Positions 7,698 to 53,086 of a stretch of DNA of 64,000 bases are shown in pieces; positions within the stretch are counted from its first letter, which is position 1, and each line of letters starts with the position of its first letter. Source of the stretch: a virus; the IMG/VR virus record IMGVR_UViG_3300003543_000059, positions 1 to 64,000 of that record; one strand, 5' to 3'. Under the pieces are notes generated by a model, which was given only the letters and a program-made list of their open reading frames with translations, was not told the origin of the DNA and searched no databases. A program made the translations under genes and the position numbers.

Positions 7698-8107
7698 AAA
7701 GTCCACAACATTTATCTGCTATAGAGCTTAAAGAGTGGAGCTATACTGTTAGAGACAACAATACAGGTCAATGGATTCCGAAGCGTTTAGAGCCTTACTA
7801 CGGTATAAGACTGATTCATCGATGCAAACTTGCATGGAAAGTGTTTACGGGTGAGTATGATGCTTTAGATTGGCTAAAAGATATTAAAAAGCCGATAGTT
7901 CAGAATGCGCCAAAAATAAATGACAAATTAGAAGTTCATTCAGAAAAATTCAAAGCCAGATATATCAATTACATGATTAAACGTGGATTGAATTATTACA
8001 TGGCTGAAGATGATTACAAGAGTTTATTATGTAATTATCATAAAGGTGATTCAGACAACCCTGAAATCACCGCAGCAGAAATGTTAAGCTACTACGACAA
8101 CGATTGA
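7694..8107 (+). CDS. Hypothetical protein
   Basis: ATGA overlap with the upstream gene. Confidence 0.65.
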   Translation: MKSPQHLSAIELKEWSYTVRDNNTGQWIPKRLEPYYGIRLIHRCKLAWKVFTGEYDALDWLKDIKKPIVQNAPKINDKLEVHSEKFKARYINYMIKRGLNYYMAEDDYKSLLCNYHKGDSDNPEITAAEMLSYYDND

Positions 8108-30913: not shown

Positions 30914-31534
30914 ATGGATAAGCAAACAACATTTAAAGAGTTTTTAACTGAAAGTTCTTTAACAAGAGTATATCAACATTCTAAACAACATGCTATTGGC
31001 ACTATCACTGCGTTTAGATATGGTTATGAAGACGAAGATGGAGAAACCATACCATATACCAAACGGGAAAATAAACAGCGTAATAAATCTCTGTTAGCAA
31101 AACTATTAAGATATGGATACAGTATTACAGCAGTTAAAGGCACCTACATTGAAAATTACAATTCAGACGATGCTAGGGAAGTTGCTGAAGATGTATATTT
31201 AGTTGTAGATATAGGAGAACGTAACGATTTGAGAAAGAATTTGAAAAAACTTGGTGTTGAATTTGACCAAGATTCAATTTTGTTTGTTCCCAAAGGTGCT
31301 CAACGTGGTGAATTAATTGGTACCAACCATACGGGGTTCCCAGGTTTTGATAAGATAAATTATCTGAAAAATCCTATTTTTGGTAGAAATGGTGAATTCT
31401 ATACAAGAGTTAATGGTAGACCATTTATTCTAAAAGAATCAACATCATTTGTCGAGAAACCAGTGAAAGGTTGGGGTAGAAACTATTCGATTAAATTGAC
31501 CGCAGAAAAATCTTGGCAAGAAATCGAAGTTTGA
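30914..31534 (+). CDS. SAM lyase (T3 SAMase)-like protein with capsid-targeting-like leader
   Basis: ITAFR..NKQRNKSL..GTYIE..ED..EFDQDSIL parallels recalled T3 SAMase motifs SAFR/GCYRE/EE/EQDCVL; GATAAATA at 30881. Confidence 0.55.
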   Translation: MDKQTTFKEFLTESSLTRVYQHSKQHAIGTITAFRYGYEDEDGETIPYTKRENKQRNKSLLAKLLRYGYSITAVKGTYIENYNSDDAREVAEDVYLVVDIGERNDLRKNLKKLGVEFDQDSILFVPKGAQRGELIGTNHTGFPGFDKINYLKNPIFGRNGEFYTRVNGRPFILKESTSFVEKPVKGWGRNYSIKLTAEKSWQEIEV

Positions 31535-34234: not shown

Positions 34235-35202
34235 AATTGAAAATTTAAAATATATCAACATACCCGAAGATTATATTTTATATCGTGATGGTTCTAAATT
34301 GAATTATATTATCAAAGATGATGATGTAGATAAGATTATAAAGGATGAACGCAAAGCTTATCAACGTAAACTGAAAACTTCAGAAGAATTTCTGTTAACT
34401 AAGGCTTTTATTAAGAATACTAACGGAAATATAATTTCTGATAAACAAAGAGTTGAAATTGAACGAGTTATGTATGCTATGTGGAAATATAATGAAATGT
34501 TGAGAATAGAAACTCTAGTATTATTGCTTAATAATGGAATAGAAACAAAATTGTTAGAACGTATTAGATTATTGGGTAATTTGAAGGCTACTGATTCAAG
34601 ATTTAACAAAATATTGTTATATGGGATAAAAAAAGGATTAGAAGAATTTAGAATTAACAAATCTGAAAGAGTGAAAGGTTCTAACAATCCAGCTTATCAA
34701 CATGGCGGGAAATTAAGTCCATATAGCAAAAAATTTATCAAATATGATAGTTCTGATGAAAGTGAAAATATCAGAAAATCTATGTTCGATAAAAATATAA
34801 AGAACAGGAATGATAATCAAAATAACACATGTAGATTAGATTATTACACATCAAGAGGTCGTTCGGAAGAAGATGCTGTGTTGGCTTTGAAGAAACGTCA
34901 AACTACATTTTCAAAACAAAAATGTATTGACAAATATGGTGATGTAAAAGGTTTTAACGTTTGGAAGAAACGTCAAAATAAATGGCAAGGCACATTAACA
35001 TCTAAATCTCAAGAAGAAATTGATATTATTAACAAAAAGAAAAGAAGCATTGGTGGTTGCTCTAAAATAGCTACTGAGTTATTTGGGTCTTTAGGGTATG
35101 GTTTTGCGAGATATGATGGTAATGGTGGCGAATAAGAATAAAATAATAACAGAATGTAAGGATTTTATAAATGAATGGGATAATGAACTTTTCGCATCTT
35201 AA
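34182..35202 (+). mobile_element. Homing-endonuclease gene between the terL halves, apparently lacking its nuclease domain
   Basis: GSNNPAY, RQTTFS..CIDKYG..RQNKW modules; ORF stops at 35135, with a KNKIITECKDFINE tail in another frame; TATAAATA 34114-34121 upstream. Confidence 0.6.
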
Positions 35203-38200
35203 AGAGAAAATATTAAAATGGTGTTTAAGTGAAGAAGCTGTTATTTATGGTGAACTATATAAACAATACCAAACTAACAAAGTAGAACGATACCAACAAA
35301 ATAAACTTAAATTTGTTGAAGAATCTGAACCGAATGATTTGTTTATTAAAACACCTTCAGGAATATCACCAATAAAACGATTATTGAAAACTGTTGAATA
35401 TGATGTATATCGTATTACTTTGGAAAACGAATTATTCTTAGAATGCGCTGATGAACATTTATTGATAGGCGAATATGGTGATGCTATATTCGCTAAAGAT
35501 AGCAAAGGAACTACATTAAGAACGATTAAAGGACCATCTGCTGTTGTAAGCGTAGAACCATTGAATCGTTCTGAATCTATGTACGATATAGAGATTGATG
35601 GTGATGACCATACATATCATACTAATGGAATATTATCACATAATACAACTTGCGCTGCTGCTTTCTTCTTGTGGTACGCAACATTTGAAGAACATAAGAC
35701 TGTTCTTATCGTATCAAACAAAGAATCAAACGCTACAGAATTCATTCATCGTCTTCAGGTTATGTATGAATACTTACCTAAATGGTTGAAGGCTGGTGTT
35801 GATGGTGAATGGAATAAAAAATCTGTTGGTTTTGATAATGGTTGTCGTGTTATATCAAGAGCGACTTCAGACTCATCAGCAAGGGGTTTATCATTATCTA
35901 TCGTATTTGCAGACGAACTTGCATTCGTTAGGGATAACATTCAAGATGAATTTTGGGCTGCTCTATCACCAACATTATCATGCGTTACGGGTGATACACT
36001 GGTATTGACCAAAAATGGCTATGAAAAAATAGAAGATTTTCATAAAGGTAAAGGTGTTGGTGATTATTTTGAAATAGATGGTGTAGAAGTGTACGGTAAA
36101 GAAGGTATTGAACCATTATCGCATGGTTATGTATCACCAGAAAGCGATACTTTAATTATAGAAACACAACGCGGTTTTATGATAGAGGTTACTCATAATC
36201 ATCCATTATACGCGTTAACAGAAAACCCTGAAATGGTTAAAGCTAAAAATTTAACTACAGCGAACTATTTAAGAATTGATTATGGGATGAATCATTTTGG
36301 AAAAAAATCTTTAGATAGTGACATCGCTTATATGTTAGGTGGATATATAGCCGAGGGGTGGTCATCACATTTTAAAAATGCTAAAGGTGAACGGGTTAAT
36401 TCTGCCATATATATAGCAAACCTTGACAGTGATTTTCGTGAAGTGTTTTATCGAAATGGTTTTAGTGACGACCTTAATCAATCACACAAAATTAGAAAAT
36501 TTGGTGTAGATGTGTGCAGGTTTTGGGAAAACGAATATGGTATAAATTTTACTCAAAAATGTTATGACAAAGAAATACCACATTATATCATGCAATCTAA
36601 TAGTAAGACTATTGGCATGTTTCTTAGGGGGTTATATGATGGTGATGGTAGTATTACTGTAAATCGAGGGATTAATCTTACATCTACTAGTAGAAAATTA
36701 ATTCAGCAAGTTCAAATTTTATTGATGAATTTTGGCATTTTAACTACGCTGGTTAAAAATGATGCTGAAAAAATAATGATACGTGAGCGTGAAAGCTGTA
36801 GACTTTTGCCACAAGGAAAACCTATTCAATCATTAAGAGATAGTTGGGGGTTGAACATATCACGTTCAAACGCTGGTTTATTCCAGCGGTGTGTAGGTTT
36901 TAATATAAAGTATAAAGGGGATAAATTAGAAGAATGTATTAAAAAATATCCTCAAGATGATTACAAACAGAAAGTCATCCCTTTTGACATTATAAAAAAT
37001 GTTATATCTAACATAGTAGAATCAAGCGGAAAAACAAAAAAATGGTTTAGAGATAAAGGGTGTCGTTTAGATAAACTTTTTAATAAATCCACAGAAAGAA
37101 CGTGTACACTTAGATGGTTGGAAGTTTTTTACAAAGCTGTTAGACATATGGATTGTGTAGCTCAATATCACAATATATTCAATGAATTGTTAGGATATGA
37201 TTGTATATGGGATAAAATAAAAACTATAACTCCATCAACTAATAAGACGTATGATTTCACGGTACCAAAAACCCACACTTTTTTACAAAACGGTATTTTA
37301 GGTAGCAATACGGGTGGTTCGTGTATCGTGGCATCAACACCTAATGGTGACATGAACTTATTCGCTCAATTAGCCAGAGCATCAGAAGCAAAAACTAACG
37401 AATTCGTATTTAAAAAATATATCTGGGAAGATGTACCAGAACGTGATGAAGCTTGGAAGAAGTCTGAAATCATGCGGATTGGTGAAGAGAAATTTTTACA
37501 AGAACATTTGTGCCACTTCTTATCTAGTGAAGCCATGCTTATTAGTAGCATGGTTCTATCCACTATTAAACCCAAACAACACGTTCGGGAACTTAAAGAA
37601 TTCAAATTGTGGGATTCTTTTTCTCCTGAAAAATCTTACATTGTTGGTGTTGACCCTAGCACCGGAATTGATAATGACTTTTCGGTTATCGAGGTCTTTG
37701 AATTTCCTACTATGATTCAAGTAGGGGAATTTCGTTCAAACACTTGCAACACTACACAATTATACCAAGCTTTAAAAGGTATTCTTATCATGATGGAACG
37801 TGTTGGGTGCCAGATATTTTACAGTTCGGAAAATAATGGCATCGGTGAAGGGTTGTTGGTGTGTATTGAAAATGATGAAAATGCACCGGAACATGCTGAG
37901 TTCGTAACGCAAGCGAATTCTAAACGTGAAGGTTTTGCTACGACCAACAAGAGCAAAATTAAAGCTTGTATTAAGTTGCGTGAAATGTTTGAATCTGGTA
38001 AGATTGAAATTAAATCGGAGCATTTGTTATTTGAGCTTAAAAATTTCATTAGAACCAAAGCATCATATGAGGCTCAGCCTGGTGCTACAGATGATTGTAT
38101 ATCCGCAGTGCTGATAGTTATTAGAATTTTAGAAGAAATAATATTGTATGATGATAGAGCTTATGCTATGATGGAAGAAAGTTTAGGAGAAGATTATTTC

Positions 38201-38257
38201 TCTAATGATGTATATGACGAGAATGGTGTTGATGCGGCAATGCCAATAGTTTTTTAA
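35171..38257 (+). CDS. terL: Terminase large subunit C-fragment: split-intein C part (35171-35644), ATPase/nuclease, internal intein
   Basis: CADEH..MYDI..NGILSHN/TT; FADELAF, ASTPNG, QEH, GVDPS, DDCI. Confidence 0.92.
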   Translation: MNGIMNFSHLKEKILKWCLSEEAVIYGELYKQYQTNKVERYQQNKLKFVEESEPNDLFIKTPSGISPIKRLLKTVEYDVYRITLENELFLECADEHLLIGEYGDAIFAKDSKGTTLRTIKGPSAVVSVEPLNRSESMYDIEIDGDDHTYHTNGILSHNTTCAAAFFLWYATFEEHKTVLIVSNKESNATEFIHRLQVMYEYLPKWLKAGVDGEWNKKSVGFDNGCRVISRATSDSSARGLSLSIVFADELAFVRDNIQDEFWAALSPTLSCVTGDTLVLTKNGYEKIEDFHKGKGVGDYFEIDGVEVYGKEGIEPLSHGYVSPESDTLIIETQRGFMIEVTHNHPLYALTENPEMVKAKNLTTANYLRIDYGMNHFGKKSLDSDIAYMLGGYIAEGWSSHFKNAKGERVNSAIYIANLDSDFREVFYRNGFSDDLNQSHKIRKFGVDVCRFWENEYGINFTQKCYDKEIPHYIMQSNSKTIGMFLRGLYDGDGSITVNRGINLTSTSRKLIQQVQILLMNFGILTTLVKNDAEKIMIRERESCRLLPQGKPIQSLRDSWGLNISRSNAGLFQRCVGFNIKYKGDKLEECIKKYPQDDYKQKVIPFDIIKNVISNIVESSGKTKKWFRDKGCRLDKLFNKSTERTCTLRWLEVFYKAVRHMDCVAQYHNIFNELLGYDCIWDKIKTITPSTNKTYDFTVPKTHTFLQNGILGSNTGGSCIVASTPNGDMNLFAQLARASEAKTNEFVFKKYIWEDVPERDEAWKKSEIMRIGEEKFLQEHLCHFLSSEAMLISSMVLSTIKPKQHVRELKEFKLWDSFSPEKSYIVGVDPSTGIDNDFSVIEVFEFPTMIQVGEFRSNTCNTTQLYQALKGILIMMERVGCQIFYSSENNGIGEGLLVCIENDENAPEHAEFVTQANSKREGFATTNKSKIKACIKLREMFESGKIEIKSEHLLFELKNFIRTKASYEAQPGATDDCISAVLIVIRILEEIILYDDRAYAMMEESLGEDYFSNDVYDENGVDAAMPIVF
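35981..37309 (+). mobile_element. Contiguous intein with LAGLIDADG endonuclease (443 aa)
   Basis: CVTGDT..THNH..LGGYIAEG..LRGLYDGDG..TYDFTV..NGILGSN/T; excision restores SPTLS-TGGS. Confidence 0.92.
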
Positions 38258-39948
38258 TGATGTATGACAAAAAATTGAAGGAAATTGGGTACCATTTATC
38301 GAATGGTGGTAATATAGGAAATTACTGGCGTAATGTAAAATTGAAAGAATTATTACTAAAAGAAACAGATTTTTTAGTAGGTGTCAATACTAACATTGAG
38401 CGAATGTATTATATTATTAATGATTTAAGAGAACAACAACGATGCGTTTGCTCCAAATTAACTAGTGTTAAACGAGTAAAGGGGTATTATATAGTTCAAT
38501 CGTGTTCTAGGCATTGCGCTATGTCTGTGATTGGTAATGATGGTTTAACTGGTTATGAGAGAATAGGTAAAAAGACTAAAGATGCAATGGAAGTTGTAGG
38601 AGATGATGGACTAACAGGTTATGAACGTAATTCGGTTAAAATATCTAAAACCTTAAATAGTGTTCAGGAATCGGGAAAGACTAGAGGACAAGAATTGGGG
38701 GAATTGAGTGCTATAGCTCGAACTGTTGTTGATGTTAGCAGTGGGTTAACTATTAACCAAAAAAATGGTAAAAAAGTTTCGAAAACATTAATGGCTATTC
38801 AACCTTCTGGAAAAACTAGAGGGAAAGAATTGGGTGAGTTGGCTAGAAAAGTAAGAATAGTGGAAGATGATAATGGGTTGAACGGGTATCAACGGTCAGC
38901 TTTAATGATGTCAAAAACAGTTAAAAAACAAAAATACTATGAGCATAAAGATAAAATAGAATCATTGGGTTTCACCGTTCTCAGTAGTTTAAGTGAATAT
39001 TATAAAGATGTATATTTTAGATATAAATGTAATACGTGTAACCAACAAAACTACACACGATACAGAAATTTGAGATGTTTAAAATGTAATCCTTACAACA
39101 AATCTATAGCGGAACAAGAAATTATAGATTATTGTGATTCATACGTTTTAGTTAAATCTAACGCTAGAAATATTATATCACCATTAGAACTTGATGTGTA
39201 TGTGGAAAGTTTGAATCTTGCCATTGAATATAATGGATTATTCTGGCATAATCACAATAAACTTGAAAACAAAAATTACCATCTCAATAAAACTGAATTA
39301 TGTGAAGCTAAAGGAATTCATCTTCTTCATATTTTTGAAAATGAATGGCTCGACCCCACAAAACAAAATATTTGGAAGTCAATCATATCAAATAAATTAG
39401 GTCATTCCACACGATTATACGCTCGGAACTGCGGGATAAGAACAGTATCAAGCGTTGAAAAGTGTGAGTTCTTAAAAGCTAATCATCTTCAAGGTGATTG
39501 CCCTTCATCTGTTAATGTTGGGTTATATCATAATGATGAATTGGTTTCATTGATGACCTTTGGGAAATCAAGGTTTAGTAAAAAATATGATTGGGAGTTG
39601 TTACGTTTTTGTAATACATTAAATGTTAGTGTTGTTGGTGGAGCATCACGTTTGTTGAAACGTTTTCGAGCGTTAAACGATGGCTCAATCGTTTCTTACG
39701 CTGATAAACGTAGAAGCAATGGCAATCTATACAAACAACTAGGGTTCAGTCATAGCCATGATTCTAAGCCAAATTACTGGTATTTTAAAAGCGGTGATAT
39801 AATGTTAGAATCTAGAGTCAAATATCAAAAACATAAATTATCAAAAATTTTAAAATATTTTGATTCTGATTTGTCAGAAAGTGATAATATGAATAATAAC
39901 GGATACCATAAAATTTATGATTGCGGTAATCAAGTTTGGGTGTTATGA
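38257..39948 (+). mobile_element. Free-standing Hef-like endonuclease with Mom/GNAT-like domain, paralog of 8092..9936
   Basis: ELDVY..AIEYNGLFWH, YARNC, VSYADKRRSNGNLY, IYDCG; GLTGYER repeats. Confidence 0.75.
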
Positions 39949-44527: not shown

Positions 44528-44561
44528 TCTATAAATACTAGTAAAATTCATTAGGGAAGTT

Positions 44562-46268
44562 ATGAAGTTACTAGAAATCTTACATCAATATGAGCATTAT
44601 ATTGATGTCTTGTTAGAAGCATCTGACTACAATATGATGTTCCCTGACCAATTCGTTGAAAAAGTTTCATCTGTATTACCTAAATACAATCGCACTTTTT
44701 TCAACGCGTCAATAGCAAAAGCCAAGAAAACTCTTAAACGTGAAGACCGTATCGTATGGTATTTGCGTTTATTGCGTCTAGAAATTGTTTTCCAATATTA
44801 TCATAAAACACCGAAGACAGAAGAAACGAAAGCTATTCTTGATACTGAATTAAAGAAGTACAACAAGAAGTCCAGACAAAATCTTACGTGGGACAAATTA
44901 AAAGCATTTTTTCCTATTAATCCTATACTTACTGCATTAGAACATTATCTTAGTTTAAAAATTAATGACATCAATCGTTATGTTTTTAAATATCAAAGTC
45001 CAGCAGAAATATCACAAGAATTTATGGAACTTGAAGAAGAATACAATGATTCTATGGGGGATGAAGACCGTTTAATTCCAGAAAATGATGAAATCGTTTT
45101 CTTGGATTGTGGTGGTGGTTTTAAATGGTTTAATCTTGAAAGAGCTTCATGTAGCGCAGAAGCTAAAGCTATGGGTCATTGTGGTAATTCGCCTTCAGGG
45201 TATGACAGCAACCAAACTATATTATCATTGAGGCAGTTTGTCAAGAAAGGTGACCAAGGCTATTGGAAACCTATTGCCACTTTTATTTATCACATTAACG
45301 AAAAATCGTTAGGTGAAATGAAAGGTAAGAACAACACTAAGCCAGTCAAACGTTATCACCCACAAATTTTAAAACTCTTATATGATGATAGAATTCAAGC
45401 TATACATGGTGGTGGCTATTTGCCTGAAGAAAATTTCAGTGTAAATGATTTAGATGAAGCTGTAAGGGATAAGCTGTTAGAAGCTAAACCACGTTTAATG
45501 TCATTCATGGATAGAATTGATAAGGACGGTATCACCGAAGAAATTTTGAAAGAGTTGGAAAATGCTGGTGCCACTATTGACTATAAAAATAAAGAATATC
45601 CTTACGTTTTAGAAACATTTGATAATCTTGGTGAAATGGTAGATGATATAGGCAATGACACAGCACAATGGATAATGAACGTGTTGGAAGGAAATGTGCA
45701 TGTTGACTTTGATGAAGGATTAGACGACAAACAAATTTTTGACGACAATCTATCACATCAACAAGAAGAAATCATACGAGAATATATTAGAACGAATCAC
45801 CAAGAATTATATGATGAAGCTGAAGAAGCAAATGGCGGTGATGACCCAGATTGGTACGAACTTTCTGAACAAATATCTGGTGATGATTGGTTTGCGAATT
45901 GGCTCGAAGAATTTAAGAGATTGCCTAGTGATGCGCAAAGAGCTGGTACCGAAAATGAAATGTCAAAAGCTTTAACGAGCAGTTTAGAATCGCTTGAACA
46001 TGAATTTGATATTGGAGTTTTTCAGCATGGCGATAATGTTTGGGATTCTAAATACACGGCTAACCTAAGAAAATACGAATTGAAAGAATTTTCTGGTTTT
46101 GGTTATGATATTACTTCAGCAGAAGATTTTATCGAAGCTTTAGGTGAACATATGGCAGAAGAGAATATGGAACTGAAAGTTGCCGCGCCTTATTATGGTT
46201 TTGATATTGATTCATTTAACCAAGAAGCGAAACAACTACTTGAACAATTGGAAGAGAAAAACAAATGA
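44562..46268 (+). CDS. PcfJ-like domain protein with capsid-targeting-like leader
   Basis: EAKAMGHCG..ILSLR..EMKGKNN; TATAAATA 44530-44537. Confidence 0.7.
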   Translation: MKLLEILHQYEHYIDVLLEASDYNMMFPDQFVEKVSSVLPKYNRTFFNASIAKAKKTLKREDRIVWYLRLLRLEIVFQYYHKTPKTEETKAILDTELKKYNKKSRQNLTWDKLKAFFPINPILTALEHYLSLKINDINRYVFKYQSPAEISQEFMELEEEYNDSMGDEDRLIPENDEIVFLDCGGGFKWFNLERASCSAEAKAMGHCGNSPSGYDSNQTILSLRQFVKKGDQGYWKPIATFIYHINEKSLGEMKGKNNTKPVKRYHPQILKLLYDDRIQAIHGGGYLPEENFSVNDLDEAVRDKLLEAKPRLMSFMDRIDKDGITEEILKELENAGATIDYKNKEYPYVLETFDNLGEMVDDIGNDTAQWIMNVLEGNVHVDFDEGLDDKQIFDDNLSHQQEEIIREYIRTNHQELYDEAEEANGGDDPDWYELSEQISGDDWFANWLEEFKRLPSDAQRAGTENEMSKALTSSLESLEHEFDIGVFQHGDNVWDSKYTANLRKYELKEFSGFGYDITSAEDFIEALGEHMAEENMELKVAAPYYGFDIDSFNQEAKQLLEQLEEKNK

Positions 46269-46756
46269 AACTTAAAGAAATTCTAGAATATTACGAAAGA
46301 TACATTGACATGCTCTTAGAAGCTGTCAATTATAACCAGATGTTTTCACCTACCTTAATTCAACATTTAGGTGCTGATGCGAATGAGATAAAAACCTATA
46401 TAGCTAAAGTTAAGAGCACACTGAAACGAGAAGATAGAATCGTGTGGTTCTTACGTTTGTTCAAAATGAATTTAATCGGTAAAGCTTTAGATAAAAACAA
46501 GACCCCAGAATTTAGAGCATATGCTGATAAGGAATTACAGAAGTATAATTCTAAAGCTGGTACACATGCCACATATTCAGGGTTGAAGCGTATGCCTTCA
46601 TTGACACGCGCATTAGCAAAGCTGGAACATTATTACAGCATGGGAATTAACAAAGTTGATACCCACGTTTTAAAATATCAGCCCATCGAAGAAATTATTT
46701 CTCAATTTGAAAAATGGGAAAATGAACATCTAGCCAAAAATTCTGGTGATGAATGA
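46265..46756 (+). CDS. Paralog of the N-terminal domain of 44562..46268
   Basis: Shared YID.LLEA..Y, TLKREDRIVW.LRL, LEHY. Confidence 0.85.
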   Translation: MKLKEILEYYERYIDMLLEAVNYNQMFSPTLIQHLGADANEIKTYIAKVKSTLKREDRIVWFLRLFKMNLIGKALDKNKTPEFRAYADKELQKYNSKAGTHATYSGLKRMPSLTRALAKLEHYYSMGINKVDTHVLKYQPIEEIISQFEKWENEHLAKNSGDE

Positions 46757-47400
46757 AATTAAATGAAATTAAACTCTTAAACGAAACACCATTACCCGAC
46801 GATTGGGATGGTGACATATACAATGAACGCATATCATTTGCTAAACGTATAAGATATGCTCAAGAACGTGCAAAAAAGCTTGGTACAGGCTCTTCACGCG
46901 TCGCTTTTGAAATACCCTATAAAGGACGACTAACAGTTCTTAAAATCGCTAAGAATCGCAAGGGGATGGCTCAGAATGAAGTTGAAGCGAACTTGATGTC
47001 TGATTATTATCTTATGAGCATGGGTATCGTTATTCCTATGATTGATTATGATGAACGTAATGCAATGCCAACATGGATTCATACAGAGAAAGCTGAAAAA
47101 ATGACACTTCCTAAGTTCAGAAAATTTACAGGTGGTGGGGATTTTAGAGACTTAGTAAATTACGCATTAGCACTAACAGGTAATGCTGGTAGGTACCAAA
47201 GCGTTGATTTGAAAAATCCTCCGGTTGATGTTGAATTAGAATTTGTGCAAGATTTCACTGAAGCTGTTGGTAACTATCAAGGTTCAATAGAATTTTTAGA
47301 TGCAGCACAAAAAGCAAATTGGGGAATATACAAAGGTGACCCAGTTATGATTGACATTGGACTAAGTTCTGATGTATACAAAGAACATTACAGTAGGTAA
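46753..47400 (+). CDS. Protein-kinase-like fold enzyme with MKLNEI..LNE leader
   Basis: LGTGSSRVAF, VLKIA, NEVE, D....NWG, IDIG. Confidence 0.75.
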   Translation: MKLNEIKLLNETPLPDDWDGDIYNERISFAKRIRYAQERAKKLGTGSSRVAFEIPYKGRLTVLKIAKNRKGMAQNEVEANLMSDYYLMSMGIVIPMIDYDERNAMPTWIHTEKAEKMTLPKFRKFTGGGDFRDLVNYALALTGNAGRYQSVDLKNPPVDVELEFVQDFTEAVGNYQGSIEFLDAAQKANWGIYKGDPVMIDIGLSSDVYKEHYSR

Positions 47401-47404
47401 GAGT

Positions 47405-47653
47405 ATGGAAACTAAGCAAACATTCAAAGAATTTTTAGAAGAACGAGCGTATGAAGGTAATAATTATCGTGAAACCTTTAAGGTTGATGGAAAAATGTTG
47501 AAGTTCTACCGTTTAGACCGTGATAAAGGTCAAGCTGCTTACATAAATGGTGATAAGATTTACATTATGGATGGTGATAAAGTAGTCTCTACCACCACCA
47601 AAGATAAATTTGACGATAAAATTGCGGACGAACCTAGACGCTTTACGCCTTAA
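47405..47653 (+). CDS. Small protein with METKQTFKEFLEE leader
   Basis: Start moved to 47405; leader resembles T4 internal proteins. Confidence 0.65.
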   Translation: METKQTFKEFLEERAYEGNNYRETFKVDGKMLKFYRLDRDKGQAAYINGDKIYIMDGDKVVSTTTKDKFDDKIADEPRRFTP

Positions 47654-49563
47654 TCAGAAAATAACTTATAACGCTCTTTGTCGGATTTAGCCATACCATG
47701 AATTCGTTTCATTGGGTGTTTAGCTTTAAACACTTCGTTCCCGTTGTTATCTTGGGTGTATTGAACCACCATTTTTTTATCTACATCAGGTCTGTTGGTG
47801 GTTAGTGCGTAATATACATCACCCGTTTTAGTGTCGGTTAGATATAGATTGCCTCGTTTATTCAAAGGTTTTTCACGGTAAGCTGGTGCTTCAGTTGAAT
47901 GTTTTTCTATAAGTCTTAGTAACTTCGTATCATATTCACGTTTTTTATAGTTAGGTTCCATGCCTAGTTTCAACAAATAGCAGAATCTTAATATGAAGGT
48001 TTTAATAAGCCCAAATTTTTTATGGTAATTTTCACCACCTAAATATCTGAATTCAATACGACCGTCTTCATTAAAAGCGTTCATACGATTGATACCATTA
48101 GACTTCTGATTAACTGGCATCAATGCTGTTATGATTTCCTTTTTCAATTTGGTGTAATCAGAAGCAGATAACCCATAATATTTAGCTTGTAATCCACTAG
48201 CAGCGTTTTGTATCCATTGCGTCATGGAATCAGCCCAACCACCATCTAAACGGTCTTCAAAGTGTTTTAGAATCAAACCTTCTTCCATAAACAACATCAT
48301 CTTGAACACGTCAAGCTTATCAAGATTGAAATTTTTATAACTTAGGTTGACATGGAACCCAGTTTCTCCTGCGCCTCTACTTATAGTCGCACCGTTATCA
48401 TCAATATAATCAAAAACCTGTTCCATAGATTCTAATCCGGCTTGTAATGAAAGTTTAGGTGATGTTATTTCTACCCCACCCTCGTCTAATGAAAGCGACC
48501 CATCTTCAACAATGTTCCATTCATTTTCATCACTACCATTAACGTCTAGGGTATACGGAAAATCGTTGTGATTGAATTTGTTGGCGATTAAGCCTTCAAA
48601 ATTATCATCACCATAAGTTCCATTATGTAGACTATCCAGCAATTCTTCGTTAGCTGAATCATATTCGTTTTCGTCGAATGCTTCATCGTACCCCATAAGC
48701 TTAATAAACGATTCTTCTTGGTCGGTTAAAGCTTCAAAGATGGCACCTTCTATGTGTTTCTTAATATCTGTTTTGGTTTCCTTTTTAAAGAAATATTCAA
48801 TAGTATCAATGATTTCTGAAGGAACTGTTGGTATTTTAACACCTTCTTTATCTAAAAATTTGTTGTGTGCCATATAGTCACTGAATCTTTGAACTTCAAG
48901 AGGTACATCATCTTTACTAATCTTGTAGTAGCTTTCACCTTTCACGTTAGTTTCTAGTGAGGTAACTTCTTGATATTTTTTAACTAATTTGAATTCTGGT
49001 TTATTTGCGTTTTGAAATCCATTAAGGTGCAACCCATAAGGTTCCAACTGTTTCATCGTCCATTCTCTAGCTTGATGATTGATAGCTGTTCTATCATCAC
49101 TTTCACTTTCTAATTTTGTGATTATATTTTGGCGTTTATTTGATATATCGTGGTACTTAGCAAGTGTTAATGGTTTATATGATGTGCCATTGGTTTTATT
49201 GAACTCTTCTACAGTTTTAATCCACTCTTTTTCCTTATTTTTAACAGCTTTCTTGCCAGCTTTAGCGCGTTGTTCATCAAACTGTTCTTGGTATGGCGAT
49301 AAATCTATCGTTGTTTGAAGGTTAACTATTTTTTTGACAAAGGCTTCGTATATTTCTGTAGCTTCTTCACTATAGTGTTTATAGTCTTTATGTTCATACA
49401 TATCAGAAAAATCATCATTACTATCACCAAACCCAGCTAAGTTGTTATCATAGTATTCATATTCCAGACCTAAGAAAAATTTAGTATCATTCATTATTTC
49501 TCTATAAGAAGAAGCGTGAACCTTTTCGGTGATAAGATATTGTTTGAAAGTAAGAGATGCCAT
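47650..49563 (-). CDS. Amidoligase (COOH-NH2 ligase, Amidoligase_2-like) A
   Basis: GLEYEY, EDGSL..GGVEITSP, TGFHVNLS, RIEFRYLGG; GATAAATA at 49598-49591. Confidence 0.85.
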   Translation of the reverse strand: MASLTFKQYLITEKVHASSYREIMNDTKFFLGLEYEYYDNNLAGFGDSNDDFSDMYEHKDYKHYSEEATEIYEAFVKKIVNLQTTIDLSPYQEQFDEQRAKAGKKAVKNKEKEWIKTVEEFNKTNGTSYKPLTLAKYHDISNKRQNIITKLESESDDRTAINHQAREWTMKQLEPYGLHLNGFQNANKPEFKLVKKYQEVTSLETNVKGESYYKISKDDVPLEVQRFSDYMAHNKFLDKEGVKIPTVPSEIIDTIEYFFKKETKTDIKKHIEGAIFEALTDQEESFIKLMGYDEAFDENEYDSANEELLDSLHNGTYGDDNFEGLIANKFNHNDFPYTLDVNGSDENEWNIVEDGSLSLDEGGVEITSPKLSLQAGLESMEQVFDYIDDNGATISRGAGETGFHVNLSYKNFNLDKLDVFKMMLFMEEGLILKHFEDRLDGGWADSMTQWIQNAASGLQAKYYGLSASDYTKLKKEIITALMPVNQKSNGINRMNAFNEDGRIEFRYLGGENYHKKFGLIKTFILRFCYLLKLGMEPNYKKREYDTKLLRLIEKHSTEAPAYREKPLNKRGNLYLTDTKTGDVYYALTTNRPDVDKKMVVQYTQDNNGNEVFKAKHPMKRIHGMAKSDKERYKLFSD

Positions 49564-49646
49564 AGTATGTTATCCGTGTTGATTTGCTATTATTTATCAT
49601 TTTTGATACAATAGCACCAACACATTAGTAACTTTGATAAATAGAT

Positions 49647-50108
49647 ATGAAAAAAACATTAGTTTTTGTTTACGGAAGTTTAAAGAAAGGGTATAGTAAC
49701 CACGAGGTTCTGGACGATTCGATATTTGTTGGTGACCATGTTACTGATGAAAAATACACCATGTTAAGCATGGGAGCGTTCCCTTGTGTTGATGATGGTG
49801 GCACTACACCTATACACGGTGAAGTGTATGCGGTTACTGATGAAACACTGAACAATCTTGATATACTTGAAGGTTGTCCACGGTTTTTTAAACGTAAAAT
49901 GTTAACAAGTACTTACGGTGAACTCGTGATGTATGTTATTAACAAGGAATGTTTAGTAGGCGAAGAATACCCTGTCATTAAAAGTGGTATATGGGAAAAC
50001 CCTTGGGAAATGGAAGAAGCATATGATATTGACCAAGAAGTTGAATCGTGGGTAGAATATGATGACGATGAAGACAATTATAAATGTCAACATCGTAGTG
50101 AATATTAA
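49647..50108 (+). CDS. Gamma-glutamyl cyclotransferase (AIG2/YtfP-like)
   Basis: VFVYGSLKKG..NH, GEVY, LDILEG. Confidence 0.9.
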   Translation: MKKTLVFVYGSLKKGYSNHEVLDDSIFVGDHVTDEKYTMLSMGAFPCVDDGGTTPIHGEVYAVTDETLNNLDILEGCPRFFKRKMLTSTYGELVMYVINKECLVGEEYPVIKSGIWENPWEMEEAYDIDQEVESWVEYDDDEDNYKCQHRSEY

Positions 50109-50125
50109 CTATTAGAGGTGATGTT

Positions 50126-50320
50126 GTGAATAGACCTAAAGTTGGACAAGTATTTATTAAGAAAGGGTTAGAACGCGAAATAGTAGACGTTCATTTTCGA
50201 GGGCATAGTAAACCTAATGATTACGATGTAGTTTGGCGAAGACCAAACACACACAAAAAATATACAATTTGGTTGCCGTATTGGACAAATTGGGTAGCCA
50301 GTGCAGAACTGGTAGAATAA
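50126..50320 (+). CDS. Small hypothetical protein
   Basis: RBS GAGGTG. Confidence 0.6.
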   Translation: MNRPKVGQVFIKKGLEREIVDVHFRGHSKPNDYDVVWRRPNTHKKYTIWLPYWTNWVASAELVE

Positions 50321-50338
50321 CATGGCAAAGGACATGGA

Positions 50339-51973
50339 ATGTTGGGAACATTTAAAGATTATTTAATCACAGAAAAAGTAAGTCAATCAGAATACGAAGA
50401 GATACTGGGTTCAGCTAAATATCGTGTTGGTATGGAGTTCGAATACATTGACAATGAGGTTCTAAGAGCCACTGCTGGTGAATTCGAATTCGATATGTTG
50501 TGGGAAGGTTACAAGAAATTTATCCACAATGTTGAAAAAGCACAAAAAGAAGCTGAAGAAATTCGTGAAAAATGGCTAGAAGAACAACGTACCATCATTC
50601 AAAAACGTATCACTGAATTGCAAGGTGAAGACGGTGATGAAGATGACATAGATACTCTTCAAGATGCTATGAAAGGTGACGGTGACTTCTACGAACTTGA
50701 TGGTTTTGAAGGGTTAGACGATTTGTCTCATGAATTTGATTTATTCGAAGAAGAACCATATTTCGATGTACCAGAAATCCCAGATGCTTTAATAGATTTT
50801 TGGGCTGAAGTTGTCACCGATGATAAAACACACGCTCAACCAGACGAAAAAGATATTCGCGAAGCTATTACGCAAGCAGTGCATGAAGCATTGTTTGACC
50901 CCGAATCTGATTTTGACGCTGACATCATGCCTAAAGCTTATAACATGGTGGATTTTCAACACTTTGACCCTACACAGGTTCAACCATCCTTAGAATCAAT
51001 TGATTCCGGCTTTAACTTTGAAGAATTTCCATATAAAAACTATGTTATCGGTGGGTATAATGAGAACCAACACATTGTTAACAAATGGCGAATAGAAACC
51101 GATGAATCATTAGAGCCTAGAGCTGGTGGTATAGAAGTTGTTTCGCCTATTACAGACTTACGCGATACGTTAGTTATCGTTAAACAGATGTTTGACTTTA
51201 TTAATAGCAATGGTTATACGAATAAATCGTGTGGGTTACATGCTAACATGAGTTTTAAAGGTTATGATTTGAAAGAGTTAGATGTGTTCAAGATGATGTT
51301 GTTCATGGAAGAAGGATTCATTTGGCAACATTTCCCTGACCGTAATGTAGCATCAGAATATCTGAGATTTACATATCAAGTTATTGCTGGAAACACCAAC
51401 ATTAGCAGTGATTTGTTAAAGGATTTCAATAAAGCTGATATAGCTAAAGCTAAAACCATTATCAAAAATTCTCAAAACAATATATTGAAATGGATGCAAG
51501 TAGCCCCTAATAAGGTTAATGGTATCAATGTATTATCACAACAAGGTTCTGCTGCTAAAAAGTTCAGAGATGGTAGGATTGAGTTTAGATATATTGGTGG
51601 TAAGGATTATTCTAAAAAATACAAACAAGTTAGGCTACAGCTTTTAAGATATGCGTTTTTATTGAGGCTGGGAATGGACCCCAACTTCAAAAAGAAAGAA
51701 TATATCACTAAAGTAGCAAGAATGATTGAAAATTATGCTGAACATTTTCCTAAGAATGTTAGAGCTGAACGTTTAGCTGACTTGGAACTGTTAGTTACTG
51801 ATGTTGTGAATAATGATGTTTATATGACCAGTAAAGACGATGAAAGCGGAACGATTATGCAATATTCTACGGATGCGGTAGATAAGAAGAAGCTTATAGG
51901 TACGATTACTCCTGATATGCTGAAGGTTCGTATGAGAACGCAGCCAGAAAGATACCAGATGTATCGAGGATAA
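50339..51973 (+). CDS. Amidoligase B, paralog of A
   Basis: GMEFEY, TDESL..GGIEVVSP, CGLHANMS, LDVFKMMLFMEEG (identical in A), RIEFRYIGG. Confidence 0.85.
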   Translation: MLGTFKDYLITEKVSQSEYEEILGSAKYRVGMEFEYIDNEVLRATAGEFEFDMLWEGYKKFIHNVEKAQKEAEEIREKWLEEQRTIIQKRITELQGEDGDEDDIDTLQDAMKGDGDFYELDGFEGLDDLSHEFDLFEEEPYFDVPEIPDALIDFWAEVVTDDKTHAQPDEKDIREAITQAVHEALFDPESDFDADIMPKAYNMVDFQHFDPTQVQPSLESIDSGFNFEEFPYKNYVIGGYNENQHIVNKWRIETDESLEPRAGGIEVVSPITDLRDTLVIVKQMFDFINSNGYTNKSCGLHANMSFKGYDLKELDVFKMMLFMEEGFIWQHFPDRNVASEYLRFTYQVIAGNTNISSDLLKDFNKADIAKAKTIIKNSQNNILKWMQVAPNKVNGINVLSQQGSAAKKFRDGRIEFRYIGGKDYSKKYKQVRLQLLRYAFLLRLGMDPNFKKKEYITKVARMIENYAEHFPKNVRAERLADLELLVTDVVNNDVYMTSKDDESGTIMQYSTDAVDKKKLIGTITPDMLKVRMRTQPERYQMYRG

Positions 51974-52348: not shown

Positions 52349-52468
52349 AGTTTTGGTGAGCTGAGTTATAAATACTCCATAGCCATTTACAGGAACCATC
52401 ATGAAAATCGAAAACGACGAAGACCATTACGAATTCGTCGCTGTACCCAGCAATAATTAAGGATTACC

Positions 52469-53086
52469 ATGCAAGAACAACCATTAGTAGACGTTAACGA
52501 AGCAATTTTTATACCTAGCCTTGATGTGCTTAGTAGCTTAGGTGACAATCCTATTATGCTGGAAACCACGTTTTCAGACATGATGACTAGTTTGAGCAAT
52601 CCCAATAACTTCAATACAAAGATGCGTCAACATGCGACACAACCTATCGTTGTTTCACAGTTGAAGATAATTCCTTATGTTGGTGTGAAGACGATATTGT
52701 TTAAAGGTGTGATTAAAGGTTCTACCGGAAAAACATATGACACACATGTTTTATTCAAACGTGTTAATTTTGTGGGTGATGTAGATGATGTAGAAGACAT
52801 TGACAAGGATGTGGTTGAGTTTGTTGCTGCTGATGGTGAAACGTATTACATTGAGCGTATAAACCTTGCTAAACACGATTTAAGTGTGTCTTGTAACTGT
52901 TTAGACTTCAAGTGGACGTTTGCCAGACACAACGCTAAGACCAAAGATTTGTATGGTGGTGCTCCTGCTCCGTATAAGCCTAAAACCGATAGACCTTCAC
53001 GTAACCTTAATGACAAACCTGCAATGTGCAAGCATTTAATTAAGACTGTTGATGCTTTGGTGCAAGCTGATATGGCTAAAGAGTAA
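52469..53086 (+). CDS. SWIM zinc-finger protein
   Basis: VSCNCLDF...MCKHL; TATAAATA 52367-52374. Confidence 0.75.
   Translation: MQEQPLVDVNEAIFIPSLDVLSSLGDNPIMLETTFSDMMTSLSNPNNFNTKMRQHATQPIVVSQLKIIPYVGVKTILFKGVIKGSTGKTYDTHVLFKRVNFVGDVDDVEDIDKDVVEFVAADGETYYIERINLAKHDLSVSCNCLDFKWTFARHNAKTKDLYGGAPAPYKPKTDRPSRNLNDKPAMCKHLIKTVDALVQADMAKE

What the first reader, a model, noticed from the sequence alone, without database searches (positions are those of the whole stretch)
47650..51973. Two leader-tagged amidoligases flanking an untagged cyclotransferase: possible writer/eraser system
Seen: divergent paralogous ligases with intact ExE, D.SL, EI/VxSP, GxHxN and EFR motifs, different inserts and C-termini, both with TFKxYLITE leaders. 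Between them is a GGCT without the leader, preceded by a sigma70-like TTGCTA-N17-TACAAT (49584-49612) and a GATAAATA. Established: COOH-NH2 ligases co-occur with GGCT/amidotransferase genes in phiEco32-type clusters proposed to make or modify peptide/cell-wall linkages. Inference: injected ligases gamma-glutamylate a host target on entry and a newly synthesised GGCT reverses it. No amidotransferase or ATP-grasp partner is nearby, unlike the canonical cluster.
Basis: partly seen in the sequence, partly recalled or inferred. Interest (0 to 1): 0.75.

Follow-up and report, generated by a model that had tools for sequence, protein, structure and literature searches.

The report
Head-tagged phage amide ligases plus cyclotransferase
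A fragment of an uncultured T4-related giant phage carries two amide-bond-forming enzymes that begin with the short tag phage T4 uses to load proteins into its head, next to an untagged enzyme that breaks gamma-glutamyl amide bonds, so the ligases are probably injected with the DNA, but their target is unknown.

Summary
ligA (47650-49563, minus strand) and ligB (50339-51973, plus strand) are paralogous glutamine-synthetase-fold Amidoligase_2 enzymes with all catalytic motifs. They flank an intact GGACT cyclotransferase (49647-50108).

- A fourth gene, orf64 (50126-50320), belongs to the module and is its best conserved member.
- The two C-termini are homologous, not different.
- GGACT, orf64 and ligB look like one operon.
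- Nothing specifically links the module to the phiEco32 cassette.

The leader is real and portable. Five unrelated proteins of the contig start with TFKxYLxE, which matches T4 IPI (MKTFKEF) and IPII/III (MKTYQEFIAE). It ends in a gp21-type (L/I)xE site, lies outside the predicted fold, and is better conserved than the catalytic core within the lineage.

A relative from the same subfamily, Atu_ph07 gp196, was detected by published mass spectrometry in purified virions.

Best reading: late-made, head-packaged, protease-trimmed ligase cargo. The gamma-glutamyl writer/eraser chemistry is coherent but inferred. The "early eraser" timing is not supported.

This scan has already found the same theme on other DNA. 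I rate it a new variant of known kinds.

The parts
47650..49563 (-). ligA: 637-aa GS-fold carboxylate-amine ligase (Amidoligase_2) with a large helical insert after strand 1 and a C-terminal beta-rich domain
   Evidence: Pfam 1.4e-10. 31% identical to ligB. Orthologues 50-88% identical in L081-L085.
49525..49563 (-). ligA leader MASLTFKQYLITE: a capsid-targeting-like propeptide ending in I-T-E
   Evidence: Conserved as TFKQYLITEKVHASSYRE in the orthologues.
49564..49646 (.). Divergent intergenic region with three conserved blocks: minus-strand GATAAATA (49591-49598), 27 nt before the ligA ATG; plus-strand TGATACAAT extended -10 (49604-49612); plus-strand GATAAATA (49636-49643), 3 nt before the GGACT ATG
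   Evidence: Alignment A2 of four relatives; the minus-strand motif is an exact TATAAATA in L083. The same GATAAATA lies 25 nt before the leader-tagged SAM-lyase-like gene. Exact TATAAATA is enriched in the window (20 found, 11.1 expected).
49647..50108 (+). GGACT/AIG2-type gamma-glutamyl(amine) cyclotransferase, 153 aa, with no leader and an acidic C-terminal tail
   Evidence: Pfam PF06094 2e-19. PDB matches: YtfP 2.3e-11 and human GGACT 3JUB 8e-8; the YGSL motif and Glu75 align with LDDFES of the human enzyme.
50126..50320 (+). orf64: conserved basic 64-aa protein of no known family, GTG start behind GAGGTGAT, C-terminus ...SAELVE
   Evidence: 98% identical in L080/L082/L083 and 76% in L081, more conserved than any neighbouring gene.
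50339..51973 (+). ligB: 544-aa GS-fold carboxylate-amine ligase (Amidoligase_2)
   Evidence: Pfam 7.1e-5. AF2 model pLDDT 85.8. VIA-align matches to glutamine synthetases at Z 12.5. 3999 related clusters.
50339..50374 (+). ligB leader MLGTFKDYLITE
   Evidence: Residues 1-7 have pLDDT below 50; confidence is above 84 from about residue 11. The leader is 67% identical to that of ligA, against 37% for the catalytic core.
47405..47653 (+). 82-aa protein with the same leader (METKQTFKEFLEE|R), convergent with ligA and overlapping it by 4 nt; syntenic in all close relatives
   Evidence: The orthologues keep [TS]FK.FL.ER.

Best explanation
Setting. The window is part of a T4-related jumbo myovirus. 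A conserved four-gene module (ligA, GGACT, orf64, ligB) encodes two paralogous ATP-dependent carboxylate-amine ligases of the glutamine-synthetase fold.

Packaging (inferred). Each ligase carries a 12-13-residue N-terminal leader of the same kind as the capsid targeting sequence of T4 internal proteins. The leader ends in a (L/I)xE site of the type cut by the gp21 prohead protease. The ligases are most likely made late, docked into the prohead core through the leader, trimmed after Glu12 or Glu13, kept in the filled head, and ejected with the DNA. They would thus resemble T4 Alt and IPI* in being delivered cargo.

Chemistry (inferred). In the newly infected cell they would use ATP to join a carboxylate to an amine on an unidentified target. 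By the rule of this superfamily, the carboxylate is probably the gamma-carboxyl of free glutamate.

Role of GGACT (inferred). The untagged GGACT stays in the cytoplasm and would turn gamma-glutamyl-amine back into the amine plus 5-oxoproline. It is co-transcribed with ligB. I therefore think its more likely role is to keep the product in check wherever the phage genes are expressed, including the cell that is producing the ligases. A purely early eraser is less likely.

What is shown: gene content, fold, intact motifs, leader similarity and its portability, conserved synteny, and virion detection of a homologue in another phage.

What is inferred: packaging and cleavage in this phage, injection, glutamate as substrate, the target, and reversal by GGACT.
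For: Leader:
- T4 IPII/III start MKTYQEFIAE and IPI starts MKTFKEF...ITE (T4 record; PMC8442874). CTS residues 4 and 7 target and residues 8 and 10 direct processing (PMC9026906).
- The window leaders TFKEFLTE, TFKEFLEE and TFKQYLVE have the same spacing, and the ligase leaders TFK(Q/D)YLITE have one extra residue.
- Five proteins of the contig carry the leader, among them a SAM-lyase-family protein (PF23780, 1.8e-9).
- Conservation is at the amino-acid level, with synonymous codon variation.
- In loci holding leader-type ligases, the strict motif is at the N-terminus of 13 of 515 non-ligase proteins. The internal background is 0.0005 per 20-aa window.
- The leader lies outside the predicted fold. 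It is more conserved than the catalytic core within the lineage and diverges between distant phages.

Late expression:
- A minus-strand late-type motif lies 27 nt before the ligA ATG and is an exact TATAAATA in L083.

Phage type:
- T4-type genes are on the contig: gp32, RecA/UvsX-like, PolB and Terminase_6N.
- A gp21-type protease (Peptidase_S77) is present in two larger related records that hold leader-type ligases.

Virion association:
- Atu_ph07 gp196 is a member of the same subfamily (Pfam 5.2e-7; hhalign 99.8%, E 5.6e-28).
- It is listed among virion proteins with 14 unique peptides and 30.2% coverage (Attai 2018, Table S5).
- It lies two genes from the T4-like portal gene.

Chemistry:
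- The top 19 structural matches are all GS, GmaS, GCS, YbdK or PafA/Dop (Z 12.5 down to 6.2).
- The catalytic residues are invariant.
- GGACT keeps the YGSL motif and the Glu aligned with the catalytic region of human GGACT.
- A ligase-GGACT adjacency recurs in a different gene arrangement in L001/L086, where the ligase is only 26% identical.
Against: - No prohead protease, scaffold or capsid gene is on this contig, so the partner machinery is not shown for this phage.
- The N-terminal pattern M.RFK.YL.EKVSKKE is shared by about 130 diverse family representatives, and E12/K13 are nearly invariant. Part of it could therefore be a family-intrinsic structural or regulatory element.
- An internal copy of the pattern survives in tandem-fused ligases (P0010).
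- T4 internal proteins are small and basic, whereas these ligases are large and acidic (pI 4.7-5.3).
- ligB has no recognisable late motif of its own and follows GGACT in an apparent operon behind a sigma-70-like -10.
- GGACT accompanies the ligases in only two of the lineages sampled.
- No member of this ligase family has a known substrate.
Confidence: 0.5

Rival explanations
1. The ligases are cytoplasmic enzymes that act during infection, as proposed for the phiEco32/PSA-HP1-type cassette (remodelling of the cell envelope or of a metabolite). The conserved N-terminus would be an intrinsic element of this ligase subfamily, for example a docking or regulatory helix, and not a capsid address.
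For: - The N-terminal pattern is family-wide, and E12/K13 are nearly invariant.
- The pattern persists inside tandem fusions.
- Amidoligase plus GGCT is a known cytoplasmic phage cassette theme (PMC5498523).
- ligB is co-transcribed with the untagged GGACT.
Against: - The same leader sits on unrelated proteins: a SAM-lyase-like protein, the 82-aa and 177-aa proteins, and other families in L086 and L087.
- It is outside the predicted fold.
- It tracks the phage lineage rather than the enzyme.
- A subfamily member is in Atu_ph07 virions.
- No ATP-grasp or amidotransferase partner was found, and there is no pairwise similarity to the phiEco32 proteins.
Confidence: 0.2
2. The ligases are packaged but act on phage components inside the prohead or head, for example on internal proteins, scaffold remnants or the polyamine counter-ions of the DNA. 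Their role would be in assembly or DNA condensation, not in attacking the host.
For: - Leader and virion evidence as in the best explanation.
- The Atu_ph07 homologue lies inside the head gene cluster, next to the portal gene.
- The ligases are strongly acidic.
Against: - An ATP-dependent enzyme is unlikely to have a supply of ATP in a sealed head.
- The variable inserts and frequent paralogue pairs look more like diversification against changing targets.
- Other proteins with the same leader include an anti-restriction-type SAM lyase, which has host-directed logic.
Confidence: 0.1
3. The ligases take part in hypermodification of phage DNA or nucleotides, adding an amino acid or amine to a modified base. 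GGACT would remove a transient glutamyl protecting group.
For: Amidoligase and amidotransferase genes co-occur with thymidine hypermodification clusters in viral metagenomes (PMC8989533).
Against: - No kinase, glycosylase-like transferase or hydroxymethylase was recognised among the neighbours by Pfam or PHROGs.
- The leader and the virion evidence are not explained by this reading.
- The contig is only about a quarter of the genome, so absence of such genes is weak evidence.
Confidence: 0.07
4. GGACT is functionally unrelated to the ligases. It would be a stand-alone auxiliary enzyme acting on host gamma-glutamyl compounds, and its position between the ligases would be a historical accident.
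For: GGACT is found next to this ligase clade in only two lineages among about 110 non-redundant loci.
Against: - Synteny is kept down to 50-63% protein identity.
- The pairing recurs in a different arrangement in L001/L086.
- The same pairing of families is known from other phage cassettes.
- The chemistries are complementary.
Confidence: 0.1

Closest known systems
[quoted passage not shown]
   Same: A short N-terminal tag with the same residue pattern: T4 has MKTFKEF and MKTYQEFIAE, and the window has TFKEFLTE, TFKEFLEE and TFKQYLVE in the same register, while the ligases' TFK(Q/D)YLITE has one extra residue before the Glu. It ends in (L/I)xE. It sits on otherwise unrelated proteins of a T4-related phage, and at least ligA is behind a late-type promoter.
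   Different: The cargo here is large acidic enzymes (544-637 aa, pI about 5), not small basic inhibitors. Packaging, cleavage and the protease itself are not shown for this phage.
T4 Alt, a head-packaged, gp21-processed, injected ADP-ribosyltransferase
   Same: An enzyme that is proposed to be delivered with the DNA and to modify targets covalently at the very start of infection.
   Different: The fold and the chemistry differ: ATP-dependent amide ligation against NAD-dependent ADP-ribosylation. There is no sequence relationship.
phiEco32 / PSA-HP1 / LUZ24-type 'peptidoglycan modification cassette': two amidoligases, an ATP-grasp enzyme, a class II amidotransferase and a GGCT (Iyer et al. 2009; Hardies et al. 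2013; PMC5498523)
   Same: Two COOH-NH2 ligase superfamily genes are linked to a gamma-glutamyl cyclotransferase in a phage genome.
   Different: No ATP-grasp or amidotransferase is found on the contig. There is no pairwise similarity to the phiEco32 proteins. The phiEco32 amidoligase has no such leader. That cassette lies among replication genes of podoviruses, whereas this module lies in a late or cargo region of a T4-related myovirus.
Atu_ph07 gp196 (AUZ94978.1), annotated as a hypothetical protein
   Same: It belongs to the same ligase subfamily (hhalign 99.8%, E 5.6e-28). It comes from a T4-related jumbo phage that has a gp21 homologue. It was detected in purified virions.
   Different: It is only about 27% identical. 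Its N-terminus is of a different type (..KKLTE|LKMNSS). No adjacent GGACT was seen in the 9-kb stretch examined.
Glutamine synthetase, gamma-glutamylmethylamide synthetase, GCS/YbdK and PafA/Dop carboxylate-amine ligases
   Same: The same fold (Z 12.5 to 7) and the same set of metal- and ATP-binding residues are conserved.
   Different: Strand 1 is separated from the rest of the catalytic core by a helical insert of about 200-300 residues. There is an extra C-terminal beta-rich domain. The substrates are unknown.

Membership tests
Amidoligase_2 (PF12224) / COOH-NH2 ligase superfamily | Sequence match above the Pfam gathering score | tested here: met
   ligA scores 41.9 bits and ligB 23.2 bits against a cut-off of 22. 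ligB is only just above the cut-off.
Amidoligase_2 (PF12224) / COOH-NH2 ligase superfamily | Glutamine-synthetase-like catalytic fold | tested here: met
   AF2 model pLDDT 85.8. VIA-align gives Z 12.5, rmsd 3.5 over 199 residues to GS, and the top 19 rows are all from this superfamily. Foldseek alone gave only weak GS hits (E 6.5e-3).
Amidoligase_2 (PF12224) / COOH-NH2 ligase superfamily | Conserved catalytic residues (ExE in strand 1, later Glu, His, Arg, ExR) | tested here: met
   E33 E35 D255 E266 H301 R335 E415 R417 are invariant in 85 sequences. Mapping these onto GS residue numbers rests on my own knowledge and was not tested.
Amidoligase_2 (PF12224) / COOH-NH2 ligase superfamily | ATP-dependent amide ligation activity | not testable with these tools
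   Needs an enzyme assay.
GGACT / AIG2-like cyclotransferases (PF06094) | Sequence match above the gathering score, the YGSL motif, and the catalytic Glu | tested here: met
   70.7 bits against a cut-off of 22.8. VFVYGSLKKG and Glu75 align with VFVYGTLKRG and LDDFES of human GGACT 3JUB. That this Glu is the catalytic residue is from my knowledge of the human enzyme.
T4-type CTS-tagged head cargo | N-terminal tag resembling the T4 IP leaders and ending in (L/I)xE | tested here: met
   Direct comparison with T4 ipI, ipII and ipIII, and enrichment at N-termini.
T4-type CTS-tagged head cargo | The phage encodes a gp21-type prohead protease (Peptidase_S77) and a scaffold core | tested here: inconclusive
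   Not found on the contig, which is estimated about 25% complete. Present in 2 of 5 larger related records.
T4-type CTS-tagged head cargo | The protein is present in virions with the leader removed | not testable with these tools
   Indirect evidence only: the homologue Atu_ph07 gp196 is in the published virion proteome. The state of its N-terminus is not reported.
phiEco32-type amidoligase / ATP-grasp / amidotransferase / GGCT cassette | ATP-grasp and class II amidotransferase genes linked to the ligases | tested here: not met
   tblastn and phmmer of phi32_80 and phi32_83 against the whole 77.9-kb contig gave nothing better than E 0.3. The rest of the genome is not available.
PafA/Pup-like protein tagging | A small tag protein ligated through its C-terminal Glu | tested here: inconclusive
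   orf64 ends in Glu in all orthologues. No relatives outside this lineage were found. GGACT chemistry needs a free alpha-amino group, which a C-terminal Glu within a protein lacks (inference).

The most novel reading that the evidence does not exclude
T4-related jumbo phages inject ATP-dependent gamma-glutamyl (amide) ligases together with their DNA. The ligases covalently modify a host molecule within seconds of entry. The untagged cyclotransferase acts as the phage's own antidote in cells where the ligases are being produced. This would be an effector/immunity pair built on amide-bond chemistry, a form of host takeover or counter-defence that has not been described.
Probability: 0.3. Interest if true: 0.85.

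Novelty: new variant of a known kind. Interest (0 to 1): 0.62.

Why it matters
Known injected phage proteins are inhibitors (IPI*), an ADP-ribosyltransferase (Alt) or RNA polymerases. An injected amide ligase would add a new covalent chemistry to the first moments of infection.

The ligase subfamily is very large: 3999 clusters at 50% identity, with 617 at E <= 1e-30. No member has a known substrate. One member has sat unrecognised in a published virion proteome.

The module gives a compact test set: two ligases, one cyclotransferase and one small conserved protein. The portable leader could also be used to load foreign proteins into the heads of non-model jumbo phages.

Tried and rejected
Context for relatives came from the search for related loci instead.
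- megablast of the module against isolate phages found no match. tblastn found only weak hits in jumbo phages.
- A single-protein scan of viral contigs found nothing. The alignment-based scan worked.
- A sequence search of the PDB with the ligase profile gave no meaningful hit.
- Foldseek against the PDB gave only weak GS hits.
- Complex prediction of ligB with orf64 returned no verdict (score 0.00). This is not evidence either way.
- The ESM Atlas returned only unnamed viral clusters for orf64.
- Pfam on the giant fused relatives gave little beyond Amidoligase_2.
- The RsoM2USA proteome covered only the ten strongest bands, so it says nothing about that phage's homologue.
- Sequencing runs: only small shares of the sampled words were held and no RNA holder is listed. 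No reads were laid, so no claim about habitat or expression is made.
- Iyer et al. 2009 (PMC3268129) is not held. Its content is cited from my own knowledge and through PMC5498523.
- I rejected the idea that the leader is a nucleotide-level element, because the codons vary synonymously.
- I rejected the plus-strand GATAAATA as an ordinary late promoter for GGACT. It is 3 nt from the ATG, against the usual 24-30 nt.

Full report
**What the window is.** The window is the first 64 kb of a 77,882-bp linear IMG/VR viral contig that CheckV estimates at about 25% complete. It encodes the following:
- a contractile tail sheath, a tail tube and a gp5-like baseplate hub;
- a T4-type large terminase interrupted by an intein;
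- gp46/47-like nucleases and a helicase;
- beyond the window, a gp32-family ssDNA-binding protein, a RecA/UvsX-like protein and an intein-bearing family B polymerase.

The exact T4 late-promoter octamer TATAAATA is enriched (20 found, 11.1 expected, none of 100 shuffles reaching 20). It typically lies 24-30 nt before a start codon. The source is therefore a fragment of a T4-related jumbo myovirus.

**The observation.**
- ligA (47650-49563, minus strand, 637 aa) and ligB (50339-51973, plus strand, 544 aa) both match Pfam Amidoligase_2.
- The gene between them (49647-50108, 153 aa) matches GGACT/AIG2.
- The ligases are paralogues: 31% identical over 422 residues, plus 39% over the first 83.
- The alignment runs to the last residues, so the C-terminal domains are homologous. 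The inserts after strand 1 differ in length.
In an 85-sequence alignment they correspond to invariant columns (G31 E33 E35 D255 E266 G299 H301 R335 E415 R417).
- A fourth gene, orf64 (50126-50320), lies between GGACT and ligB.
- The whole arrangement is syntenic in metagenomic relatives L080-L085: 82-aa leader protein, ligA, GGACT, orf64, ligB. This holds down to 50-63% protein identity.
- orf64 is the most conserved member: 98% identical where ligB is 91%, and 76% where ligB is 63%.

**Fold and chemistry.**
- An AlphaFold2 model of ligB built on the 85-sequence alignment has mean pLDDT 85.8.
- VIA-align against 48,161 PDB representatives puts glutamine synthetases first (Z 12.5, rmsd 3.5 over 199 residues).
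- Next come 1-naphthylamine GS, gamma-glutamylmethylamide synthetase, Dop/PafA, YbdK and glutamate-cysteine ligases. The first 19 rows all belong to this one superfamily.
- By established knowledge of these enzymes, nearly all activate the gamma-carboxyl of a glutamate as an acyl phosphate and pass it to an amine.
- GGACT aligns with E. coli YtfP (2.3e-11) and human gamma-glutamylamine cyclotransferase (8e-8). It keeps the YGSL motif, and Glu75 aligns with the catalytic region of the human enzyme.
- A ligase that makes gamma-glutamyl-amines and a cyclotransferase that breaks them are chemically complementary. That coupling is an inference, not a result.
- Cyclisation needs a free alpha-amino group. 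GGACT therefore fits ligation of free glutamate. It does not fit a Pup-like tag joined through the C-terminal Glu of a protein.

**The leader.**
- *Occurrence.* Five proteins of the contig start with TFK[QED][YF]L.{1,2}E within their first 18 residues. They are both ligases, an 82-aa protein (47405), a 177-aa protein (25592) and a 206-aa protein (30914). The last is a member of the S-adenosylmethionine lyase family (PF23780, 1.8e-9).
- *Match to T4.* From the T4 record itself, IPII and IPIII begin MKTYQEFIAE and IPI begins MKTFKEF...ITE. Published work defines MKTYQEFIAE as the capsid targeting sequence (PMC8442874). Its residues 4 and 7 are needed for targeting, and residues 8 and 10 for cleavage by the head protease (PMC9026906). 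The window's TFKEFLTE matches that pattern position for position, as do TFKEFLEE and TFKQYLVE. The two ligase leaders (TFK(Q/D)YLITE) carry one extra residue before the Glu, so their aromatic residues sit one position further from it, but they still end in I-T-E.
- *Level of conservation.* The codons vary at synonymous sites, so selection acts on the peptide.
- *Portability.* In non-redundant loci that hold leader-type ligases, the strict motif sits at the N-terminus of 13 of 515 non-ligase proteins. The internal rate is 0.0005 per 20-residue window. Examples include three paralogues in L087 and several proteins in L086.
- *Structure.* In the model, residues 1-7 have pLDDT below 50. Confidence rises above 84 from about residue 11.
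- *Evolution.* The leader is the best conserved segment between ligA and ligB (67%, against 37% for the catalytic core). It is 92% conserved in a relative whose core is 43% identical. In distant phages it falls to 8-17% while the core stays near 30%. The leader thus follows the phage lineage rather than the enzyme, as expected for a tag that must fit the phage's own head-assembly machinery.

**Caveat on the leader.** The subfamily is huge: 3999 clusters at E <= 1e-3. About 130 diverse representatives share the pattern M.RFK.YL.EKVSKKEI...G.EFE. E12 and K13 are nearly invariant. An internal copy survives in tandem-fused ligases. Part of this N-terminus may therefore also be an intrinsic feature of the enzyme family.

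**Virion evidence.**
- A lead from earlier notes of this scan pointed to Atu_ph07, and I checked it.
- The tblastn hit of ligA in that phage is AUZ94978.1. It is a 500-aa "hypothetical protein" lying two genes from the T4-like portal gene.
- It matches Amidoligase_2 (5.2e-7). It aligns to the subfamily profile with 99.8% probability, E 5.6e-28.
- By gene order and mass it is gp196. Supplementary Table S5 of Attai et al. 2018 lists gp196 as a virion protein of 57.94 kDa with 14 unique peptides and 30.2% coverage. The same file lists a gp21 homologue, gp204.
- Peptidase_S77 genes are also present in two of five larger related viral records that carry leader-type ligases.
- The window's own contig has none, but three quarters of that genome is missing.

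**Expression signals.** The 83-nt divergent region between ligA and GGACT has three blocks conserved in four relatives.
1. On the minus strand, GATAAATA (49591-49598) lies 27 nt before the ligA ATG. In L083 it is an exact TATAAATA. The same variant lies 25 nt before the leader-tagged SAM-lyase-like gene.
2. On the plus strand, TGATACAAT (49604-49612) is an extended -10. The hexamer is kept as TACAAT or TATAAT in all four relatives.
3. A plus-strand GATAAATA ends 3 nt before the GGACT ATG, which is too close to act as an ordinary late promoter for that gene.

Promoter-like hits as a class are at chance level in this region, so only the conservation carries weight. GGACT, orf64 and ligB are separated by 17 and 18 nt, and no terminator is predicted between them. 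They are most simply read as one operon.

**Comparison with the known cassette.** The phiEco32-type cassette has a GGCT, an ATP-grasp enzyme, an amidotransferase and two amidoligases. It has been described as a peptidoglycan-modification cassette (PMC5498523). Its proteins have no significant pairwise match anywhere in the 77.9-kb contig, so the relationship is at superfamily level only.

Within the leader-type clade:
- paired ligase genes are common (7 of 29 non-redundant loci, against 0 of 74 other loci), and fused doubles also occur;
- a GGACT neighbour is seen only in the window's lineage and, in a different arrangement, in L001/L086.

**Verdict.** The best-supported reading is that ligA and ligB are head-packaged, protease-trimmed enzyme cargo of a T4-related jumbo phage. 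I put this at about 0.5. The gamma-glutamyl writer/eraser chemistry is coherent but untested. The target is unknown. The idea of a separately timed eraser is weakened by the operon structure.

The same theme has already been noted by this scan on other genomes. In the literature I could search, I found no description of capsid-tagged amidoligases.

Noticed in passing
window 30914-31534 (+): A 206-aa protein of the S-adenosylmethionine lyase family (PF23780, 1.8e-9) carries the same leader (MDKQTTFKEFLTE|SS), with GATAAATA 25 nt upstream. Homologues in L001 and L002/L003 also have short N-terminal extensions ending in LxE just before the conserved domain.
   Followed up: partly
window 46753-47400 (+): A 215-aa protein (phrog_4301, no Pfam match) shows GTGSSRVAF, VLKIAK and IDIG motifs that by eye resemble the glycine loop, catalytic lysine and DFG-like motif of a small protein kinase. 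It is syntenic with the ligase module in all close relatives and begins MKLNEIKLLNE.
   Followed up: no
window 44562-46268 and 46265-46756 (+): Paralogous genes share an MKL(L/K)EILxYYExYIDxLLEA N-terminus and lie behind an exact TATAAATA (44530-44537). The family is expanded to three full-length copies in L081. No known family matches; there is a conserved MGHCGNSP motif.
   Followed up: no
window 50126-50320 (+): orf64 is the most conserved gene of the module (98% and 76% identity). It is basic (pI 9.7), has no known family and always ends in ...SAE(L/Q)VE. Its role is unexplained.
   Followed up: partly
window 52469-53086 (+): A 205-aa protein with a CxC...CxH (SWIM-like) pattern, 94% identical in L080 and 87% in L081, lies behind an exact TATAAATA (52367-52374). 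No family match.
   Followed up: no
window 35171-38257 (+) and L167:9346-13086 (-): Both the T4-type large terminase and the family B DNA polymerase are interrupted by inteins with LAGLIDADG domains.
   Followed up: no
window 8092-9936 (-) and 38257-39948 (+): Two large paralogous homing/HNH endonuclease genes (phrog_3339, E 1e-104 and 4e-115).
   Followed up: no
L007:2955-5237 (= P0010) and L004:5451-8195: Tandem-fused double ligases. In P0010 the second copy keeps an internal leader-like MVEFLTEKV, so a head protease cutting after LTE could separate the two enzymes.
   Followed up: no
L161/L162 (G002:C1:107421-108911, -): The Peptidase_S77 match in this related 127-kb record comes in two pieces about 1.1 kb apart within one 578-aa open frame. 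This suggests an insertion, possibly an intein, in the prohead protease gene.
   Followed up: no
L165:3509-7269 (Salicola phage SCTP-2 gp125, gp124): An adjacent pair of distant ligase homologues whose N-termini (MKFNQIKTNQINE|G) resemble the window's second N-terminal type (MKLNEIKLLNE) rather than the TFKxYL type.
   Followed up: no
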